From IMG/VR virus record IMGVR_UViG_3300029193_000102, positions 1-33,477 of that record: a stretch of 33,477 nucleotides of DNA. The stretch is one strand, 5' to 3'. This DNA is from a virus (lineage: Duplodnaviria; Heunggongvirae; Uroviricota; Caudoviricetes). The position numbers and the translations under genes are program-made. This document shows positions 892-19,014 of the stretch, in pieces; position 1 is the first letter of the stretch, and every line of letters starts with the position of its first letter. The notes beneath the pieces were generated by a model. The model was not told the origin of the DNA. It ran no database searches and saw only the letters and a program-made list of their open reading frames with translations.

Positions 892-981
892 GGAGAGATG
901 CCGGAGCGGCTGAACGGACCGGTCTCGAAAACCGGAGTGGGGGCAACTCCACCGGGGGTTCAAATCCCCCTCTCTCCGCCA
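892..981 (+). tRNA. serU: tRNA-Ser, anticodon CGA; prophage integration target
   Basis: 90-nt sequence GGAGAGATGCCGGAGCGGCTGAACGGACCGGTCTCGAAAACC...GGTTCAAATCCCCCTCTCTCCGCCA with long variable arm, T-loop GGTTCAAATCC and 3' CCA; anticodon loop CTCGAAA. Confidence 0.9.
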
Positions 982-5401: not shown

Positions 5402-5459
5402 AAAAAGGGCGGCAGAGCAGTCACGGAGTAAAACTGATACCGCCAAACGTCACCAGAAA
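5402..5459 (-). ncRNA. dicF: DicF small RNA (53 nt at 5407..5459) with 3' stem-loop and U-tract
   Basis: Minus-strand sequence TTTCTGGTGACGTTTGGCGGTATCAGTTTTACTCCGTGACTGCTCTGCCGCCC followed by TTTTT matches recalled DicF; lies upstream of dicB as in the Qin dicB operon. Confidence 0.7.
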
Positions 5460-13206: not shown

Positions 13207-13465
13207 ATACAGCGAACGCCATTGGTTTAGTTGGATATTTACTGTGCCGGACAAAAACGGTTTGCGGGGAAATCTTAGTTAAGTAGAATAACTGCGGGTG
13301 CTTGAGGCTATCTGTCTCAGGCATGAACACCAAAAGGCAGATAGAGAAAAGCCCCAGTTAACATTACGCGTCCGGCAAGACGCTTAACATTAATCTGAGG
13401 CTCAATCTATGAACGGCAAATCTAGGTTAGCCTCTTACGTGCCGAAAGGCAAGGAGAAGCAGGCT

Positions 13466-13621
13466 ATGAAGCAGCAAAAGGCGATGTTAGTCGCCCTGAT
13501 CGTCATCTGTATTACCGTCATTGTGACGGCACTGGTAACGAGGAAAGACCTCTGCGAGGTACGAATCCGAACCGGCCAGACGGAGGTCACTGTCTTCACA
13601 GCTTACGAACCTGAGGAGTAA
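13466..13621 (+). CDS. hok: Hok/Gef-family type I toxin (HokD/RelF-like)
   Basis: 51 aa MKQQKAMLVALIVICITVIVTALVTRKDLCEVRIRTGQTEVTVFTAYEPEE, near-identical to recalled HokD; AAGGAGAAG SD 7 nt upstream. Confidence 0.8.
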   Translation: MKQQKAMLVALIVICITVIVTALVTRKDLCEVRIRTGQTEVTVFTAYEPEE

Positions 13622-14062: not shown

Positions 14063-15121
14063 GTGCGGATATTACTTCGACCTGTTCTGGTACCGGAACT
14101 CGGGCTGGTGATCCTTAGGCCGGGCCGTGAATCCATGCAAGTATTTCATAACCCTCGAGTGCTGGTGGAGCCTGAACCGAAAAGCATGCGCGGTCTGCCG
14201 TCCGGAGTCGTCCCTGCCGTTCGCCAGCCGCTGGCGGAGGATAAATCATTACTGCCATTTTTCAGCGATGAGCGTGTGATTCGTGCTGCTGGCGGCGCTG
14301 GCGCACTGTCTGACTGGCTCCTGCGTCATGTTAAATCCTGCCAGTGGCCTCATGGAGACTATCACCACAGTGAAACCGTCATACATCGTTACGGTACCGG
14401 CGCAATGGTGTTGTGCTGGCACTGCGACAACCAACTGCGCGACCAGACCTCCGAATCACTCGGGCAACTTGCTCACCAAAACCTGTCTGCATGGATGATT
14501 GACGTCATACGCCATGCAATGAATGGCTCGCAGGAACGGGAATTATCGCTGGCTGAATTATCCTGGTGGGCGGTCCGCAATCAGGTGGCGGACGCGCTAC
14601 CGGAAGCGGTATTACGTCGTTCGCTGGGGTTGCGTGCGGAAAAAATCCGCTCAATGTACCGTGAAAGCGACATCGTACCGGGAGAGCAGACCGCCACCAG
14701 CATACTGAAGCAGCGCACAAAAAATATTGCGCTACCACTTCACGCCCACCAGCAACAAATCCGGCCACAGGAAAAGACGGTGGTCAGCATTGCCGTTGAT
14801 CCGGAGTCACCGGCTCAGTATCTCCAGCGCCAGAAACCACAACGGGAAGAGATGCCTGTATACACGCGCTGGGTAAAAACGCAGAAATGCATGACGTGCG
14901 GTAATCAGGCAGATGATCCGCATCACATCATTGGTCATGGACTGGGAGGGATGGGAACAAAGGCTGACGATTTGTTTGTTATTCCGTTGTGCCGTAAATG
15001 CCATAACAAACTACATGCCGGAGTAAAAGATTTTGAAGAAAAACACGGCAGTCAGTTGTTGTTGCTGATTCGTTTTTTAATGCACGCGAGAAACTCGGGT
15101 GTTCTGAAGTGGAAAGCATAA
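14063..15121 (+). CDS. DUF968 protein (YdfU-like) with C-terminal Cys/His motif
   Basis: GTG 14063 with GGAGG 4 nt upstream; ~352 aa like recalled YdfU; C-terminal CMTCGN...HHIIGHG...CRKCHNKLH. Confidence 0.65.
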   Translation: MRILLRPVLVPELGLVILRPGRESMQVFHNPRVLVEPEPKSMRGLPSGVVPAVRQPLAEDKSLLPFFSDERVIRAAGGAGALSDWLLRHVKSCQWPHGDYHHSETVIHRYGTGAMVLCWHCDNQLRDQTSESLGQLAHQNLSAWMIDVIRHAMNGSQERELSLAELSWWAVRNQVADALPEAVLRRSLGLRAEKIRSMYRESDIVPGEQTATSILKQRTKNIALPLHAHQQQIRPQEKTVVSIAVDPESPAQYLQRQKPQREEMPVYTRWVKTQKCMTCGNQADDPHHIIGHGLGGMGTKADDLFVIPLCRKCHNKLHAGVKDFEEKHGSQLLLLIRFLMHARNSGVLKWKA

Positions 15122-15487
15122 ATGACCGAACGCATAGAATTTGTTTTGCCTTACCCGCCGACGGTGAACACTTACTGGCGACGCCGTGGCAGCACATATT
15201 TTATCTCGGAGGAGGGAAAGCGTTATCGCCGGGCTGTGGCGCTTATTGTTCGCCAGCAGCGGCTGAAATTAAGCCTGTCCGGAAGGCTGGCGATAAAGGT
15301 GATTGCAGAGCCACCGGATAAGCGTCGTCGCGACCTGGACAACATTCTGAAAGCACCGCTGGATGCGCTGACGCATGCGGGAGTGCTCATTGATGACGAG
15401 CAGTTTGATGAAATCAATATTGTACGTGGTCAGCCAGTATCTGGTGGACGGCTGGGTGTGAAGATTTACAAAATTGAGAGTGAGTGA
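15122..15487 (+). CDS. rusA: Holliday junction resolvase RusA
   Basis: 121 aa; matches recalled RusA motifs LPYPPTVNTYWRRRG and DKRRRDLDNILKAPLDALTHAGVLIDD. Confidence 0.85.
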   Translation: MTERIEFVLPYPPTVNTYWRRRGSTYFISEEGKRYRRAVALIVRQQRLKLSLSGRLAIKVIAEPPDKRRRDLDNILKAPLDALTHAGVLIDDEQFDEINIVRGQPVSGGRLGVKIYKIESE

Positions 15488-16050
15488 GCGTAAATATGAT
15501 ATATCCGGAAATTACAGGCAAAAGCGGCGAGCATTTGCGTCTAAAAACGCTGGAAGCAGTCTGGATCCAGGGGAAATTACGGATGTGGGGGCGGTGGTCG
15601 TATATTGGCGGCGGTAAGACGGGAAATATGTTCAACCAATTACTGACCTCTAAAAAGCTGACAAAAACGGCAATTAACGAGGCGCTCCGGAGGATGAAAA
15701 AAGCTGGTCTGGACAAACCTGAACTTGAGGCTTTTTTGCGGGATATGATCAACGGCAATCAAAAAAGCTGGCTGGCACATTGTACCGATTCAGAGGCGTT
15801 AATAATCGACAGGGTTATTGGTGAAGTCCTGGCAGGCTATCCCGGGCTGCTCAATGTCCTGAGTCAGCGTTATGTGGGGCGGGGGATGACTAAGCGCAAA
15901 ATGGCTGAACTGCTGAATGATGCACACCCGGAATGGAGTTTAAGAACCTGTGAAAGACGCATTGAGCATTGGCTAAAGGTGGCAGAATTTATTTTGTACA
16001 AACCAATGGTTATGGCTTTTGGTATAGAGAAAAAAGTTATTGCTTTTTGA
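15484..16050 (+). CDS. Putative late-gene antiterminator (Q-like), assigned mainly by position
   Basis: 188 aa; lies between rusA and a strong terminator that precedes the late genes; alternative start ATG 15496. Confidence 0.5.
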   Translation: MSVNMIYPEITGKSGEHLRLKTLEAVWIQGKLRMWGRWSYIGGGKTGNMFNQLLTSKKLTKTAINEALRRMKKAGLDKPELEAFLRDMINGNQKSWLAHCTDSEALIIDRVIGEVLAGYPGLLNVLSQRYVGRGMTKRKMAELLNDAHPEWSLRTCERRIEHWLKVAEFILYKPMVMAFGIEKKVIAF

Positions 16051-16127
16051 CGTAAAAACTGCTTCAATTCCGGTACGCTTCGCAAAGCTGTACCACGAGG
16101 CGAATAGCAGACATGGACATTTGAAAG

Positions 16128-16151
16128 AGCCCGCTTTTTGCGGGTTTTTTT
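16128..16151 (+). terminator. Rho-independent terminator downstream of the Q-like gene (tR'-like)
   Basis: CCCGC-TTTTT-GCGGG followed by TTTTTTT. Confidence 0.6.
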
Positions 16152-16274
16152 ATGCCTGAAAAACGGCACAGAACATTAAACGCGCTGGTGGTTGCGAATA
16201 CCGGTCTTTCAGCTTGCTGGCTTTTCCGACAAGAGTTATTGGTATGTTACGTTAACCAGAAAAGGGAAAAAGAC

Positions 16275-16472
16275 ATGCTAAAACAGCAGGATATGACCGA
16301 AACCGCCAGAGTGGTGTTTAATGAGTTAAGCGTCACCGAACCGGCGACAGTCGGGGAGATTGCACAGAATACTTACCTTTCACGCGAACGCTGCCAGTTA
16401 ATACTGACCCAGCTTGTTATGGCGGGTCTGGCAGACTATCAGTTTGGTTGTTACAGACACCTTCAGTCCTGA
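16275..16472 (+). CDS. Small winged-helix-like protein (65 aa)
   Basis: ATG 16275 with AAAGGGAAAAAG upstream; TVGEIAQNTYLSRERCQLILTQLVMAGLADY; stop codon sits inside a terminator hairpin. Confidence 0.4.
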   Translation: MLKQQDMTETARVVFNELSVTEPATVGEIAQNTYLSRERCQLILTQLVMAGLADYQFGCYRHLQS

Positions 16473-16486
16473 AGGCTTTTTTATTT
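16460..16486 (+). terminator. Rho-independent terminator
   Basis: CCTTCAG-TC-CTGAAGG followed by CTTTTTTATTT. Confidence 0.5.
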
Positions 16487-16804
16487 GTGGTAAATTGGCG
16501 GCTGGTGGGTGTGGTGGTTGTTGCTTTCCCGTTGCTGAAAAAGAAAACGCCAGACTGTTAGCCGGGTATCAGTTATCTGGAGAAATTTTTAAATACCTCA
16601 CAATTCAGGCGGTTGACTGTTGTCTGGTTTGCGGGGAGTTTGTTAAAAGAAACTGGCATGGTGAATCCCCCTGTGCGGAGGGGCAATCAGCAACTGGTGT
16701 TTTGTCACCGACCCTTATCCTTTCTGTGCGGGTTCAGGTGCTGATACTGAACTCACCGGGAGGCACCCGGCATCATGTGCATGATGATACAGATACGCGG
16801 CTTT

Positions 16805-16830
16805 AGCCCCTCTCCGGAGGGGCTTTCTTG
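16805..16830 (+). terminator. Rho-independent terminator (plus strand)
   Basis: AGCCCCTC-TCCG-GAGGGGCT followed by TTCTTG. Confidence 0.45.
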
Positions 16831-16835
16831 TGGGC

Positions 16836-16861
16836 AAAAAAAAGCCCGAGTGGGTTCGGGC
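16836..16861 (-). terminator. Rho-independent terminator (minus strand), convergent with the previous one
   Basis: A8 run then GCCCGA-GTGGGT-TCGGGC on the plus strand, i.e. hairpin plus U-tract on the minus strand. Confidence 0.4.
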
Positions 16862-17043
16862 AACAGCATGAGATATACATTTTTATAATCGAATGGATTT
16901 TAACCAGAATTCATAAGGCTGCGCAACTGCGCGGTCTTTTTCGAATTGCGGGCTGTCGTCTCTCTTCTGCCATTGTCCTGTAACTTCCGGACTTCAGCCT
17001 GCTCCTTATCTGACTCACAATATTATCCCGGCCGGGAGGATTC

Positions 17044-19014
17044 ATGGCATTTAAACACTACGATGTGGTCAGGGCGGCATCGCCGTCAGACCTTGCGGAT
17101 GCGCTTGCTCAAAAAATTCGTGAAGGATGGCAACCATACGGCGGGCCGTTTTCTTCGTACACGGATGATGGCGCAGCACTTATTCAGGCGATTGTCGCAG
17201 AAGGTAATGTCACCACACCTGTGGTGGTGAAGCCGTCGGATGGAGAAGGCGCAGTTATCAGCACCACCAGCAACCCGGAGTATTACTTTGTTGTTGCCCT
17301 GGCCGGGCAGTCAAACGGTATGGCGTATGGTGAAGGGCTTCCGCTGCCGGAGACATATGACCGTCCGGACCCGCGTATTAAACAGCTGGCGCGTCGCAGC
17401 ACTGTCACGCCGGGTGGTGCGTCCTGTAACTACAATGACATTATTCCTGCGGACCACTGCCTGCATGATGTTCAGGATTTGAGTAAGTTTTCACACCCGA
17501 AAGCCAGCGCAGCTCAGTATGGATGCGTGGGGCAGGGATTACATATCGCGAAGAAATTGTTGCCGTTTATTCCGGCGAATGCCGGTATTCTTCTGGTTCC
17601 GTGCTGCCGTGGGGGTTCTGCATTTTTGGCGGGCGATGAAGGTACCTTCAGCGAATCCACCGGCGCAAGCGAGACCTCGGCACGCTGGGGTGTAGATAAG
17701 CCACTGTACAAGGACCTGCTTACCCGTACTCAGGCCGCACTGAAGGCCAACCCTAAAAATATTCTGCTTGCAGTGGTCTGGATGCAGGGCGAGTTTGATT
17801 TGAAACAGGGTGCATACGCCACTCAGCCGGGGCTGTTTGATTCCATGGTGGAAAAATATCGTTCTGACCTGTCGGAATTCGGAGGTCAGTGTCTCGGGGG
17901 CTCTCCGTCATCAGTTCCCTGGATTTGTGGCGACACGACCTACTACTGGAAGCAGACTTATTCTTCGCAATACGATGCGGTGTATGGTGCATACAAGACG
18001 AAATCCGCAAAAAAAATCTTCTTTGTGCCGTTTATGACGGATGAAAACGGGCGAAATGTGGGTACCAACGAGCCGTCAGAAGATCCGGATGTTGCGGATA
18101 TTGGGTATTACGGAGCCGGTGGTCGAACGGACGCCAAAACCTGGACGACGGCTGACCGTAAAACGCATTTTGGATCATGGGCACGTCGTGGGATTATTTC
18201 CGACCGTCTGGCAACGGCGATTCTTGTGCATGCCGGGAGAACCGCTGAATTCATTACCGGAAAACAGCCTGATACGGTGAAGCCCACCGGACCTTCCGGT
18301 GAAGGTACGGAGAGAGAGCCGGAAGGTCCGGTCAGTAACCGAACCCTGATGAGTCTGCTGGCGTCCGGCGAAGACCTGGCATCACAGGGCTGGCGCTATT
18401 ATCACAAACCGGCGAGCGGAGACAATGTTAACAAAAACATTGCTGAAGCGGTGGTCAGTGATGCGGGGGCTACGGGAGGTAAGGCCCTGCAACTGAATAA
18501 ACCGGAAAACCACATCTGGTTTCTGGAGCATGATGCAGCCGGGCAGGGGGCAGAGTTGCTGAAGAAAGGAGGACGTGTGAGCGTACGGTTTAAGTTGCCG
18601 GGTTCACTGGTGCCGAATCAGTTTGCCCTGGGCATTTACTGGCAGTTGTCGTCCCTGCCGGAGGGAGTGACGCTGGCAGAGGAAGGCAACGACATGCTGA
18701 TGTCCTTCTTCCTGCAGACGGATGCGACGAACCTGAACGCGATGCACCACAAGAAGCCGAATGCGAAGCTGGAAACGTTCGGGGTCTTTGATAACGGATG
18801 GCACACACTGGCTTTTGAGTTTGCCGGAAACAACAGCATTCAGGTGACGCCGGTACTGGATGAGAAACGGGGGACGCCGTTCACACTGGTGAAATCTCCG
18901 GCATCAGGGGCGGTGGACAAACTGCAACTGACAGGCATATCAAAGGCGGCGACATATACGCTGCTGATTGACAGTGTGAAGGTGGAAGTGAACAACGCGG
19001 ACATCGCGGCATGA
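17044..19014 (+). CDS. nanS: Prophage sialate O-acetylesterase (NanS-p type; DUF1737 N-terminus plus SGNH/SASA esterase domain)
   Basis: 656 aa; GGAGG SD; N-terminus MAFKHYDVVRAASPSDLADALAQKIREGWQPYGG; esterase motif ALAGQSNG; position between Q and lysis genes as in Stx phages. Confidence 0.8.
   Translation: MAFKHYDVVRAASPSDLADALAQKIREGWQPYGGPFSSYTDDGAALIQAIVAEGNVTTPVVVKPSDGEGAVISTTSNPEYYFVVALAGQSNGMAYGEGLPLPETYDRPDPRIKQLARRSTVTPGGASCNYNDIIPADHCLHDVQDLSKFSHPKASAAQYGCVGQGLHIAKKLLPFIPANAGILLVPCCRGGSAFLAGDEGTFSESTGASETSARWGVDKPLYKDLLTRTQAALKANPKNILLAVVWMQGEFDLKQGAYATQPGLFDSMVEKYRSDLSEFGGQCLGGSPSSVPWICGDTTYYWKQTYSSQYDAVYGAYKTKSAKKIFFVPFMTDENGRNVGTNEPSEDPDVADIGYYGAGGRTDAKTWTTADRKTHFGSWARRGIISDRLATAILVHAGRTAEFITGKQPDTVKPTGPSGEGTEREPEGPVSNRTLMSLLASGEDLASQGWRYYHKPASGDNVNKNIAEAVVSDAGATGGKALQLNKPENHIWFLEHDAAGQGAELLKKGGRVSVRFKLPGSLVPNQFALGIYWQLSSLPEGVTLAEEGNDMLMSFFLQTDATNLNAMHHKKPNAKLETFGVFDNGWHTLAFEFAGNNSIQVTPVLDEKRGTPFTLVKSPASGAVDKLQLTGISKAATYTLLIDSVKVEVNNADIAA

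What the first reader, a model, noticed from the sequence alone, without database searches (positions are those of the whole stretch)
16152..17043. Stx-equivalent locus holds a small winged-helix ORF and converging terminators instead of toxin or tRNA genes
Between the tR'-like terminator and nanS-p, where Stx phages carry tRNA and stx genes, this prophage has a 65-aa winged-helix-like ORF (16275..16472) whose stop lies inside a terminator, then ~340 bp without a convincing ORF, then a plus-strand terminator (16805..16830) abutting a minus-strand terminator (16836..16861), then a weaker hairpin plus T-run near 16917..16941. The minus-strand terminator implies a leftward transcript of roughly 150-180 nt originating just upstream of nanS-p, which could be an antisense or regulatory RNA. 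This is the spot I would examine first for an undescribed small regulatory module.
Basis: partly seen in the sequence, partly recalled or inferred. Interest (0 to 1): 0.55.

Follow-up and report, generated by a model that had tools for sequence, protein, structure and literature searches.

The report
Known prophage small-RNA pair, cassette-less site
The "empty" Shiga-toxin slot of this prophage holds a known pair of back-to-back Hfq-type small regulatory RNAs (an STnc100/EcOnc27 copy and a short AsxR/AgvB-class "anti-sRNA") plus a conserved 65-residue phage protein, so it is mostly ordinary; the one open point is that this anti-sRNA carries an untested 5' targeting sequence.

Summary
The sequence features are real, but the module is already described. 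The ~340-bp "ORF-less" stretch and its plus-strand terminator are a full-length STnc100 sRNA (Rfam RF02076, 130.6 bits against a cut-off of 47). This is the family of EcOnc27/sRNA103, which lies downstream of stx2 in O157. The abutting minus-strand terminator ends a 53-56-nt anti-sRNA of the AsxR/AgvB/EcOnc03 class. It does not end a 150-180-nt antisense RNA. Its promoter (TTGCGC-18 nt-TAAAAT) is conserved in all four variant types. This convergent sRNA "dyad" between PR'/Q and the lysis genes was described by Tree et al. 2014. The 65-aa ORF is a real gene under purifying selection (phrog_331); its winged-helix fold is only weakly supported. In relatives a 0.6-2.8-kb cassette sits exactly at 16512/16513. 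It carries tRNA genes and, in different relatives, a methyltransferase, TerB or stx2AB, and DUF3927. The window is the cassette-less form and keeps a DUF3927 remnant at a Chi-containing repeat. The modest novelty is the anti-sRNA's 5' region, a fourth, uncharacterised variant. It is at least 99% identical in 153 of 20,395 complete-genome records. Its predicted pairing to AsxR's target FnrS is about half as strong, but the prediction method is weak.

The parts
16122..16151 (+). tR'-like intrinsic terminator downstream of the Q gene (DUF1133-type Q, 15484-16050). It forms the left boundary of the locus.
   Evidence: Fold -18.2 kcal/mol, z -5.3. Q identified by Pfam DUF1133 (352 bits) plus Phage_antitermQ (32.6 bits).
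16152..16274 (+). Non-coding leader upstream of ORF65. The in-frame 106-aa extension called by some annotations is not coding.
   Evidence: Across 54 unique homologous loci, variable columns by codon position are 29/31/31. Many relatives have in-frame stops or frameshifts here.
16275..16472 (+). ORF65: a conserved 65-aa phage protein (phrog_331; named 'TrmB family transcriptional regulator' by NCBI). It is the first gene after tR'. It is a possible small winged-helix DNA binder of unknown function.
   Evidence: Variable columns by codon position 5/6/28. phrog_331 E 5.5e-37. Seven wHTH Pfam families match residues 6-55, all below cut-off (TrmB 18 bits against 25.6). 334 homologues in Escherichia, Shigella, Salmonella, Klebsiella and Citrobacter. 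AF2 pLDDT 67 with three helices; Foldseek and PDB searches found nothing.
16460..16485 (+). Weak intrinsic terminator overlapping the ORF65 stop codon.
   Evidence: The sequence through 16512 is 95-100% conserved in 80 related loci.
16487..16561 (+). 3' remnant (24 codons, GTG start, no Shine-Dalgarno) of a DUF3927 small membrane-protein gene. Probably not functional.
   Evidence: Pfam DUF3927 30.2 bits, but only profile positions 37-53 of 53. The full 54-aa gene is seen at the right end of the cassette in L011 (5298-5462). PGAP annotates the 24-aa CDS in strain EC931.
16501..16514 (+). Cassette junction. The Chi-containing repeat GCTGGTGGGTGT lies here; relatives have a 0.6-2.8-kb cassette inserted between 16512 and 16513.
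   Evidence: The same Chi-containing repeat is present on both sides of the cassette in L010, L011, L014, L018 and L075.
16596..16835 (+). STnc100 / EcOnc27 (sRNA103) family Hfq-binding sRNA. The Rfam core is 16627-16835. The block conserved across different upstream contexts, and a 5' hairpin (16606-16626), begin at about 16596.
   Evidence: RF02076 130.6 bits (GA 47), model positions 1-206. Alignment and consensus fold of 14 unique homologues, with a G-U/G-C/A-U change in the 5' hairpin. Sp5 EcOnc27 is ~235/247 nt by Northern.
16805..16831 (+). Terminator of the STnc100 sRNA. Its U-tract is interrupted (UUUCUUG).
   Evidence: -19.4 kcal/mol, z -2.2.
16836..16891 (-). Anti-sRNA of the AsxR/AgvB/EcOnc03 class, 53-56 nt: CGAUUAUAAAAAUGUAUAUCUCAUGCUGUUGCCCGAACCCACUCGGGCU8. 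The 5' region is a fourth, uncharacterised variant. From UAUCUC onward it is identical to EcOnc03.
   Evidence: RF02703 AsxR 63.0 bits (equal to GA 63), E 7e-9, model positions 1-53; AgvB 43.4 bits, below GA. Published sequences in the Tree 2014 supplement. Variant census. At least 99% identical in 153 records.
16897..16926 (-). Sigma-70 promoter of the anti-sRNA: -35 TTGCGC (16926-16921), 18-nt spacer, -10 TAAAAT (16902-16897), start at C16891.
   Evidence: TTGCGCAGCCT-AT(G/A)AA(T/C)(T/C)CTGGTTAAAAT is conserved in window-type, Sp5 AsxR, AgvB-type and EcOnc03-type loci. 5' ends of the homologues were mapped by RLM-RACE in Tree 2014. It is inferred here, not measured.
16915..16941 (+). Strong plus-strand hairpin followed by T5, about 100 nt upstream of nanS-p. 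It is probably a backstop terminator for read-through from STnc100. It overlaps the -35 of the anti-sRNA promoter.
   Evidence: -18.3 kcal/mol, z -3.9. It is conserved upstream of the esterase gene even where the anti-sRNA is replaced by another element, with G-C to G-U changes. In L074 and L043 its homologue directly terminates a shortened STnc100-like RNA.
17034..17046 (+). Shine-Dalgarno sequence (GGGAGG) and ATG of nanS-p (DUF1737 + SASA esterase + DUF6645). It forms the right boundary of the locus.

Best explanation
The locus is the late-operon 'moron' site of a lambdoid prophage in its cassette-less form. It carries the known dyad of convergent, independently transcribed Hfq-type sRNAs.

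**In a lysogen (inferred from homologues):**
- PR' transcripts stop at tR'.
- The STnc100/EcOnc27-family sRNA (about 16596-16832, plus strand) and the 53-56-nt anti-sRNA (16891->16836, minus strand) are made from their own promoters. They end at back-to-back terminators about 5 nt apart.
- The anti-sRNA binds Hfq through its U-tail and its A-rich 5' part. It uses its variable 5' ~20 nt to pair with a core-genome sRNA and titrate or destabilise it, which de-represses that sRNA's targets. AsxR does this to FnrS and AgvB does it to GcvB.
- Here the 5' region differs from all three characterised variants, so the partner is probably not FnrS or GcvB and is unknown.

**On induction (inferred):**
- Q-modified polymerase reads through tR', the ORF65 terminator, the STnc100 terminator and the third hairpin. 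This expresses ORF65 (a small, possibly DNA-binding protein of unknown role), nanS-p and the lysis genes.
- That late transcript is antisense to the anti-sRNA.

**Origin of the 'empty' state:** it arose by recombination between Chi-containing repeats that flank the tRNA/methyltransferase/TerB-or-stx2/DUF3927 cassette in relatives.
For: **Shown here**
- Rfam matches at or above the curated thresholds for both RNAs, each covering the full model.
- From UAUCUC onward the anti-sRNA is identical to the published EcOnc03, and its first 7 nt match AsxR.
- The promoter is conserved across four variant classes.
- The same order, STnc100 -> anti-sRNA <- esterase gene, is seen in Sp5 of O157 Sakai, where Rfam gives STnc100 207.7 bits and AsxR 88.1 bits.
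- The cassette lies exactly at 16512/16513 in relatives, with tRNAs, stx2AB in L012, L035 and L044, and a full DUF3927 gene.
- ORF65 has a coding signature.

**From the literature**
- Convergent sRNAs at the moron site; sizes of 51-60 nt; mapped primary 5' ends; Hfq CRAC peaks and loss in delta-hfq; sponge activity of AsxR on FnrS and of AgvB on GcvB (PMC4104026).
- Dyads occur in at least 8 Sakai prophages (PMC7873438).
- STnc100 corresponds to EcOnc27/sRNA103 downstream of stx2 (PMC12711010; PMC12370729).
- The 11 STnc100 copies of EDL933 are transcribed without induction, and one was confirmed by Northern blot (PMC5331693).
Against: - There are no expression data for this strain or for this anti-sRNA variant.
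- The AsxR score sits exactly on the gathering threshold.
- The 5' end of the STnc100-family RNA and its promoter could not be fixed from sequence.
- Simple duplex-energy prediction cannot tell even the validated AsxR-FnrS pair from shuffled controls (z +0.5). The statement that FnrS is not the partner (-5.2 against -10.1 kcal/mol at the FnrS terminator loop) is therefore weak.
- The function of ORF65 is unknown and its fold is not established.
Confidence: 0.85

Rival explanations
1. One reading: the minus-strand terminator ends a ~150-180-nt antisense or regulatory RNA that starts just upstream of, or inside, the nanS-p start region. It acts in cis on nanS-p or late-transcript expression.
For: A promoter-like site is found on the minus strand at 17050->17022 (ATGCCA-17-GATAAT, 9 of 12 matches). 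A transcript from it would end at 16836 after about 180 nt.
Against: One promoter-like site is below the chance expectation (2.1 +/- 1.3 in shuffles). Its -10 is lost in AgvB-type and EcOnc03-type loci, which keep the sRNA. The homologues have mapped primary 5' ends that give 51-60 nt. The Rfam model matches only 16891-16839.
Confidence: 0.05
2. The minus-strand element is a decaying, non-functional copy of AsxR. It may be transcribed, but it has no specific partner because its seed has drifted.
For: The AsxR score is only at the threshold, 63.0 against 88.1 for Sp5. There are four substitutions in the 5' region. Predicted FnrS pairing is halved.
Against: The exact 95-nt promoter-plus-RNA sequence is at least 99% identical in 153 complete-genome records and in four independent viral contigs. 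Two further contigs differ by one or two bases. The promoter, terminator and Hfq-type U-tail are intact. In this family the 5' region is expected to vary between functional members.
Confidence: 0.12
3. The convergent hairpins serve mainly as a bidirectional transcriptional insulator at a recombination-prone site. The RNAs are by-products with no trans-acting role.
For: Back-to-back terminators lie between modules that are swapped among phages. Examples are iraM or another minus-strand element in place of the anti-sRNA. The reviewers state that the reason for the dyad arrangement is unclear.
Against: Two members of the class have compensatory-mutation-verified trans targets. STnc100 has a conserved multi-helix structure well beyond its terminator.
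Confidence: 0.05
4. ORF65 is the key element: a winged-helix repressor or activator made from read-through of tR' that controls the neighbouring sRNA promoters or PR'.
For: ORF65 sits directly after tR' in hundreds of phages, upstream of stx2 in some. Seven wHTH profiles align weakly over residues 6-55.
Against: All profile matches are below the curated cut-offs. The structure model has low confidence and finds no wHTH match. ORF65 also occurs in loci that lack the anti-sRNA, and the dyad occurs in Sp5 without ORF65. There is therefore no obligatory linkage.
Confidence: 0.08

Closest known systems
AsxR (EcOnc02), the anti-sRNA of Stx2 phage Sp5 (Rfam RF02703; Tree et al. 2014)
   Same: Same position and orientation: convergent with STnc100/EcOnc27 and directly upstream of the esterase gene. 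Same promoter, same first 7 nt (CGAUUAU), same terminator hairpin and same length class.
   Different: Four substitutions in the 5' targeting region (U8A, C13U, A15U, G16A) plus AA->UG at positions 27-28. Predicted pairing to the FnrS terminator loop falls from -10.1 to -5.2 kcal/mol. There is no stx2 upstream. It is found in non-STEC clinical isolates.
EcOnc03 (Sp9) and AgvB/EcOnc01 (Sp10, Sp17; RF02702)
   Same: From UAUCUC onward it is identical to EcOnc03. The promoter is shared and so is the dyad arrangement.
   Different: The 5' variable region differs. It lacks AgvB's CA-rich GcvB-mimic; AgvB-GcvB gives -22 kcal/mol while the window variant gives -9. The AgvB model scores 43.4, below GA 56.
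STnc100 (RF02076) = EcOnc27 / sRNA103, downstream of stx2B
   Same: Full-length model match at 130.6 bits. The helices are conserved, including the CCCCCUGUGCGGAGGGG and CACCGGGAGGCACCCGG hairpins, and so is the terminator.
   Different: The central variable segment differs from the Sp5 copy, which scores 207.7 bits. Here it follows a DUF3927 remnant rather than stx2B. There is one copy, whereas some relatives have two in tandem.
PasD sRNAs of EPEC (Zhu, Shabalina & Storz 2026 preprint)
   Same: [quoted passage not shown]
   Different: No PasD sequence was compared here. The window element scores as STnc100 proper.
StxS / lambda 6S-type PR'-tR' RNA
   Same: The locus starts at a tR' that should release a short constitutive PR' transcript, as in Stx phages.
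   Different: There is no sequence similarity to the Sp5 region. The only Rfam match is a sub-threshold isrK hit of 18 bits. PR' was not located.

Membership tests
Prophage anti-sRNA class (AsxR/AgvB/EcOnc03; Tree et al. 2014) | Unusually short RNA (51-60 nt) running from its own promoter to a Rho-independent terminator | tested here: met
   53-56 nt from the conserved start position (C16891) to the U-tract (16843-16836). The promoter TTGCGC-18-TAAAAT is conserved. The ends are inferred from sequence, not mapped.
Prophage anti-sRNA class (AsxR/AgvB/EcOnc03; Tree et al. 2014) | Highly conserved ~42-nt 3' region with a variable 14-18-nt 5' region | tested here: met
   From UAUCUC to the U-tail it is identical to EcOnc03. 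The 5' region is unlike all three published variants.
Prophage anti-sRNA class (AsxR/AgvB/EcOnc03; Tree et al. 2014) | Encoded 3' of PR' at the moron site, convergent with a second sRNA, before a conserved phage ORF | tested here: met
   Order Q - tR' - ORF65 - STnc100 -> <- anti-sRNA - nanS-p. The order is the same in Sp5.
Prophage anti-sRNA class (AsxR/AgvB/EcOnc03; Tree et al. 2014) | Binds Hfq and is destabilised without it; antagonises a core-genome sRNA | not testable with these tools
   This needs CRAC or RIL-seq, Northern blots in delta-hfq, and reporter assays.
AsxR sensu stricto (FnrS sponge; Rfam RF02703) | Covariance-model score at or above the gathering threshold | tested here: met
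   63.0 bits against GA 63, exactly borderline; E 7e-9.
AsxR sensu stricto (FnrS sponge; Rfam RF02703) | 5' end complementary to the loop of the FnrS terminator | tested here: inconclusive
   -5.2 kcal/mol against -10.1 for Sp5 AsxR. The U8A change breaks the 8-bp helix. However, the method does not separate true pairs from shuffled controls.
STnc100 (Rfam RF02076) | Covariance-model score at or above the gathering threshold over the whole model | tested here: met
   130.6 bits against 47, model positions 1-206 of 206.
TrmB / winged-helix transcription regulators (Pfam PF01978 and relatives) | Profile score at or above the curated cut-off, or a wHTH fold | tested here: not met
   TrmB scores 18.0 against 25.6, and six other wHTH families are also below cut-off. 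The AF2 model has pLDDT 67. Foldseek against the PDB gives a best E of 4, and PDB profile search a best E of 0.085. The resemblance is only suggestive.
PHROG 331 (phage protein of unknown function) | Significant profile match | tested here: met
   E 5.5e-37 over residues 1-64. The profile's first 34 positions correspond to the non-coding upstream extension.
DUF3927 (PF13064) | Full-length match to the 53-position profile | tested here: not met
   The score of 30.2 bits is above GA, but only profile positions 37-53 match. It is a 3' remnant.
Stx-converting prophage | stxA/stxB genes at the moron site | tested here: not met
   tblastn with Stx2A and Stx2B finds nothing in the window (best E 0.37). 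Relatives L012, L035 and L044 carry stx2 at this site.

The most novel reading that the evidence does not exclude
The window-type anti-sRNA (5' CGAUUAUAAAAAUGUAUAUC) is a functional fourth specificity in the anti-sRNA family. It would sponge a core-genome sRNA other than FnrS or GcvB. It is spread by non-Stx lambdoid prophages into commensal and extraintestinal E. coli, where it is at least 99% identical in 153 complete-genome records and is never annotated. That would extend phage-borne rewiring of host sRNA networks beyond EHEC.
Probability: 0.35. Interest if true: 0.45.

Novelty: new member of a known kind. Interest (0 to 1): 0.2.

Why it matters
The finding mainly shows that an apparently empty toxin slot is not empty. 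It holds two known Hfq-type riboregulators that RefSeq annotation leaves unmarked. For this variant, one search shows no feature under any of the 25 listed matches.

Practical value:
- It gives a correct annotation of this locus.
- It provides a clean example of the cassette-less and cassette-bearing forms of the moron site, with the junction mapped to a Chi-containing repeat.
- It identifies an uncharacterised anti-sRNA allele whose target could be sought in existing or new RIL-seq or CLASH data.

It does not open a new class of system.

Tried and rejected
1. **Longer 106-aa reading of the small ORF (ATG 16152).** Rejected. The upstream part shows no codon-position bias, and relatives have stops and frameshifts there.
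2. **Structure route for ORF65.** AF2 on a 27-sequence alignment gave only pLDDT 67. Foldseek against the PDB and profile search against PDB sequences gave nothing significant. The winged-helix call stays unproven.
3. **Target prediction for the anti-sRNA by duplex energies.** I tested it against FnrS, GcvB, the window's own STnc100, DicF and the tR' RNA, with shuffled controls. Only AgvB-GcvB stood out (z -1.8). The validated AsxR-FnrS pair did not (z +0.5). The method is therefore uninformative and no partner is proposed. I did not build a full E. coli sRNA panel because this control failed.
4. **Sigma-70 promoter for STnc100.** TTGACT (16613-16618) looks like a -35, but it lies in the loop of a hairpin that shows a pair change, and no acceptable -10 follows at 17 nt. 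An extended -10 candidate (TGTTAAAAG, 16641-16649) and a TTAAAT box (16589-16594) are both possible. This is unresolved.
5. **PR' upstream of tR'.** No convincing match was found.
6. **A ~48-nt plus-strand RNA** from the perfect TATAAT at 16884-16889 to the third hairpin. The -35 is poor and the box is not conserved in the other variants, so I treat it as coincidence.
Full report
**What is in the sequence**

The region lies in the late operon of a lambdoid prophage.
- Upstream are RusA (15122-15487) and a DUF1133-type antiterminator Q (15484-16050; Pfam 352 bits plus Phage_antitermQ 32.6 bits). Downstream is a nanS-p-type esterase (17044-19014; DUF1737 + SASA + DUF6645).
  - a strong tR' hairpin (-18.2 kcal/mol, z -5.3);
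  - the 65-aa ORF 16275-16472, whose TGA lies inside hairpin 16460-16475 followed by a T-run;
  - a plus-strand terminator at 16805-16824;
  - a minus-strand terminator at 16861-16844;
  - a third hairpin at 16915-16938 with T5. This one is strong, not weak (-18.3 kcal/mol, z -3.9, 0 of 200 shuffles as stable).
- No tRNA gene lies in the locus. No stx homologue lies in the window.

**The two RNAs**

A search of 15000-18000 against all Rfam families gave two hits at or above the curated thresholds, and the whole-window search confirmed both.
- STnc100 (RF02076) matches 16627-16835 on the plus strand: 130.6 bits against a threshold of 47, over the full model (positions 1-206).
- AsxR (RF02703) matches 16891-16839 on the minus strand: 63.0 bits against a threshold of 63, over the full model (positions 1-53), E 7e-9.
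- AgvB (RF02702) matches the same place below its threshold (43.4 against 56).

So the '340 bp without an ORF' plus the plus-strand terminator is an sRNA gene. The abutting minus-strand terminator ends a second, very short sRNA.

**This arrangement is published**

- Tree et al. 2014 (PMC4104026) describe 'convergent sRNAs' at the moron insertion site 3' of PR' in Sakai prophages Sp3, 4, 5, 9, 10, 11, 15 and 17.
- In that paper the minus-strand members (EcOnc01/AgvB, EcOnc02/AsxR, EcOnc03) are 51-60 nt. They have mapped primary 5' ends, a conserved ~42-nt 3' region and a variable 14-18-nt 5' region.
- They are Hfq-bound and act as sponges: AsxR on FnrS and AgvB on GcvB.
- The plus-strand partner in Sp5 is EcOnc27 (~235/247 nt), later equated with STnc100 and sRNA103.
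- The 2021 review calls these 'dyads' and notes that the reason for the arrangement is unclear.
- I fetched Sp5 from the Sakai genome. Rfam finds STnc100 (207.7 bits) and AsxR (88.1 bits) there, in the same order and directly upstream of the esterase homologue ECs_1207.

**The anti-sRNA in detail**

- The window RNA is CGAUUAUAAAAAUGUAUAUCUCAUGCUGUUGCCCGAACCCACUCGGGC followed by U8.
- From UAUCUC onward it is identical to the published EcOnc03. Its first seven bases equal those of AsxR. Within the 5' region it differs from AsxR at four positions.
- Among 80 related viral contigs plus Sp5 I found four 5' types: EcOnc03-type (10 loci), window-type (4 loci identical to the window, plus 2 differing by one or two bases), AgvB-type (3) and AsxR (Sp5).
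- On the minus strand, TTGCGC (16926-16921), an 18-nt spacer and TAAAAT (16902-16897) precede the start at C16891. This block is conserved in all four types.
- The promoter-like site near the nanS-p start (17050->17022) is within chance expectation and is lost in the AgvB-type and EcOnc03-type loci.
- The 95-nt promoter-plus-RNA sequence is at least 99% identical in 153 of 20,395 complete-genome records, and 95-99% identical in 30 more. The records include urinary, CSF and carbapenem-resistant isolates. None of the 25 listed matches has an annotated feature.

**Which sRNA might it sponge?**

- Restricted to the FnrS terminator loop, which is AsxR's published site, Sp5 AsxR gives -10.1 kcal/mol. 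The window variant gives -5.2, similar to the non-cognate AgvB and EcOnc03.
- A control with shuffled anti-sRNA 5' regions showed that this simple method does not separate AsxR-FnrS from noise (z +0.5). Only AgvB-GcvB stands out (z -1.8).
- I therefore conclude only that the targeting region differs. No target is proposed.

**STnc100 boundaries**

- I aligned 16 copies with different upstream contexts: stx2B, tRNA-Arg, another STnc100 copy, or the DUF3927 gene.
- Conservation starts at about 16596, roughly 30 nt before the Rfam model.
- A 5' hairpin at 16606-16626 is predicted in the consensus fold. One of its pairs changes between G-U, G-C and A-U.
- If the 3' end is near 16831, the ~235/247-nt sizes of EcOnc27 would place the 5' end at about 16586-16600. 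This is inference.
- The promoter could not be assigned.
- The terminator U-tract is interrupted (UUUCUUG). The third hairpin, 85 nt further on, is therefore plausibly a backstop terminator.
- That hairpin is conserved upstream of the esterase gene even where the anti-sRNA is replaced. In L074 and L043 its homologue directly terminates a shortened STnc100-like RNA.

**ORF65**

- Across 54 unique homologous loci, variable columns in 16275-16469 fall 5/6/28 by codon position. In the upstream in-frame extension (16152-16274) they fall 29/31/31, and many relatives have stops and frameshifts there.
- The 65-aa protein is therefore real, and the 106-aa form seen in some databases is an over-call.
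- It belongs to phrog_331 (E 5.5e-37). It has 334 homologues in several enterobacterial genera, which NCBI usually names 'TrmB family transcriptional regulator'.
- Seven winged-helix Pfam families align to residues 6-55, all below cut-off (TrmB 18 bits against 25.6).
- AlphaFold2 gave three helices at pLDDT 67. Foldseek and PDB profile searches gave nothing significant.
- 'Winged-helix-like' is a reasonable guess but is not shown.
- ORF65 and the dyad are not obligatorily linked. Sp5 has the dyad without ORF65, and many loci have ORF65 without the anti-sRNA.

**Why the site is 'empty'**

- In 80 related contigs, ORF65 and its terminator (through window 16512) are conserved.
- 14 contigs continue as the window does. 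The others that reach far enough have 0.6-2.8 kb inserted before homology resumes, at 16513 or at about 16586.
- The inserts carry tRNA-Met/Arg/Arg. In L011 there is also a DNA methyltransferase and a TerB-like gene. In L012, L035 and L044 there is stx2AB.
- The right end of the cassette encodes a 54-aa DUF3927 protein (L011 5298-5462). The window keeps only its last ~17 codons (16487-16561; Pfam 30.2 bits, profile positions 37-53 of 53).
- Both cassette ends carry the repeat GCTGGTGG(G/C)GGTGT, which contains the Chi octamer. The window has a single copy at 16501-16514.
- The cassette-less state is therefore best explained by recombination between these repeats. The direction (loss or gain) is inferred from the truncated gene.

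**Mechanism, with status of each step**

- Shown: the identity and boundaries of the RNA genes by covariance models and by homology to mapped RNAs; the conserved promoter; the coding status of ORF65; the cassette junction.
- Inferred from homologues: constitutive expression in lysogens, Hfq binding, sponge action, and read-through of all four plus-strand terminators by Q-modified polymerase on induction. That read-through would also make RNA antisense to the anti-sRNA.
- Unknown: the anti-sRNA's partner, the targets of STnc100, and the role of ORF65.

**Verdict**

The module is a known kind, the sRNA dyad at the moron site. The only new element is an uncharacterised 5' allele of the anti-sRNA. 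Interest is low.

Noticed in passing
window 16501-16514; L010, L011, L014, L018 and L075 cassette ends: The tRNA/methyltransferase/TerB-or-stx2/DUF3927 cassette of relatives is bracketed by a direct repeat, GCTGGTGG(G/C)GGTGT, that contains the Chi octamer. The window has one copy at the junction. The window holds 10 plus-strand and 4 minus-strand Chi sites in 33.5 kb.
   Followed up: partly
window 16487-16561 (+): A 24-codon ORF that is the 3' remnant of a DUF3927 small membrane-protein gene. PGAP annotates it as a CDS in strain EC931. It has a GTG start and no Shine-Dalgarno sequence, so it is probably not functional.
   Followed up: yes
window 13296-13471 (+), 5407-5458 (-), 892-981 (+): Other Rfam hits in the window: sok antitoxin RNA (112.4 bits), DicF (76.7 bits) and tRNA-Ser(CGA). 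The last is presumably near the prophage attachment site.
   Followed up: no
L008, L009, L019, L022, L049, L065 and L072, between STnc100 and the esterase gene: In place of the anti-sRNA these relatives carry a different minus-strand terminator (GCCCGCGTCTCCCAGCGCGGGC plus T7), preceded by about 90 nt of AT-rich sequence. No Rfam family reaches its threshold there. It may be another dyad partner sRNA.
   Followed up: partly
L005, L026, L032, L076 and L077, between STnc100 and the esterase gene: An AT-rich ~630-bp insert with a minus-strand 111-aa IraM-like ORF replaces the anti-sRNA. RefSeq annotates 'anti-adapter protein IraM' at this place in two genomes (H59, H60).
   Followed up: partly
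L029 3353-3558 and 3836-4045; L008 4772-4962 and 5240-5449: Some relatives have two tandem STnc100 copies upstream of the minus-strand partner. The window has one.
   Followed up: no
L074 3353-3525; L043 5471-5643: A shortened STnc100-like RNA (101-108 bits) ends directly at the homologue of the window's third hairpin, just upstream of the esterase gene. It may correspond to the PasD sRNAs described in EPEC. No PasD sequence was compared.
   Followed up: no
window 16884-16889 (+): A perfect TATAAT lies on the plus strand inside the anti-sRNA's variable region. Together with the third hairpin it could give a ~48-nt plus-strand RNA. The -35 is poor and the box is not conserved in the other anti-sRNA variants.
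   Followed up: partly
window 16050-16151 (+): The PR'-tR' interval should yield a short constitutive RNA, as with lambda 6S and StxS. It shows no similarity to the Sp5 region and only a sub-threshold isrK match (18 bits). PR' was not located.
   Followed up: partly
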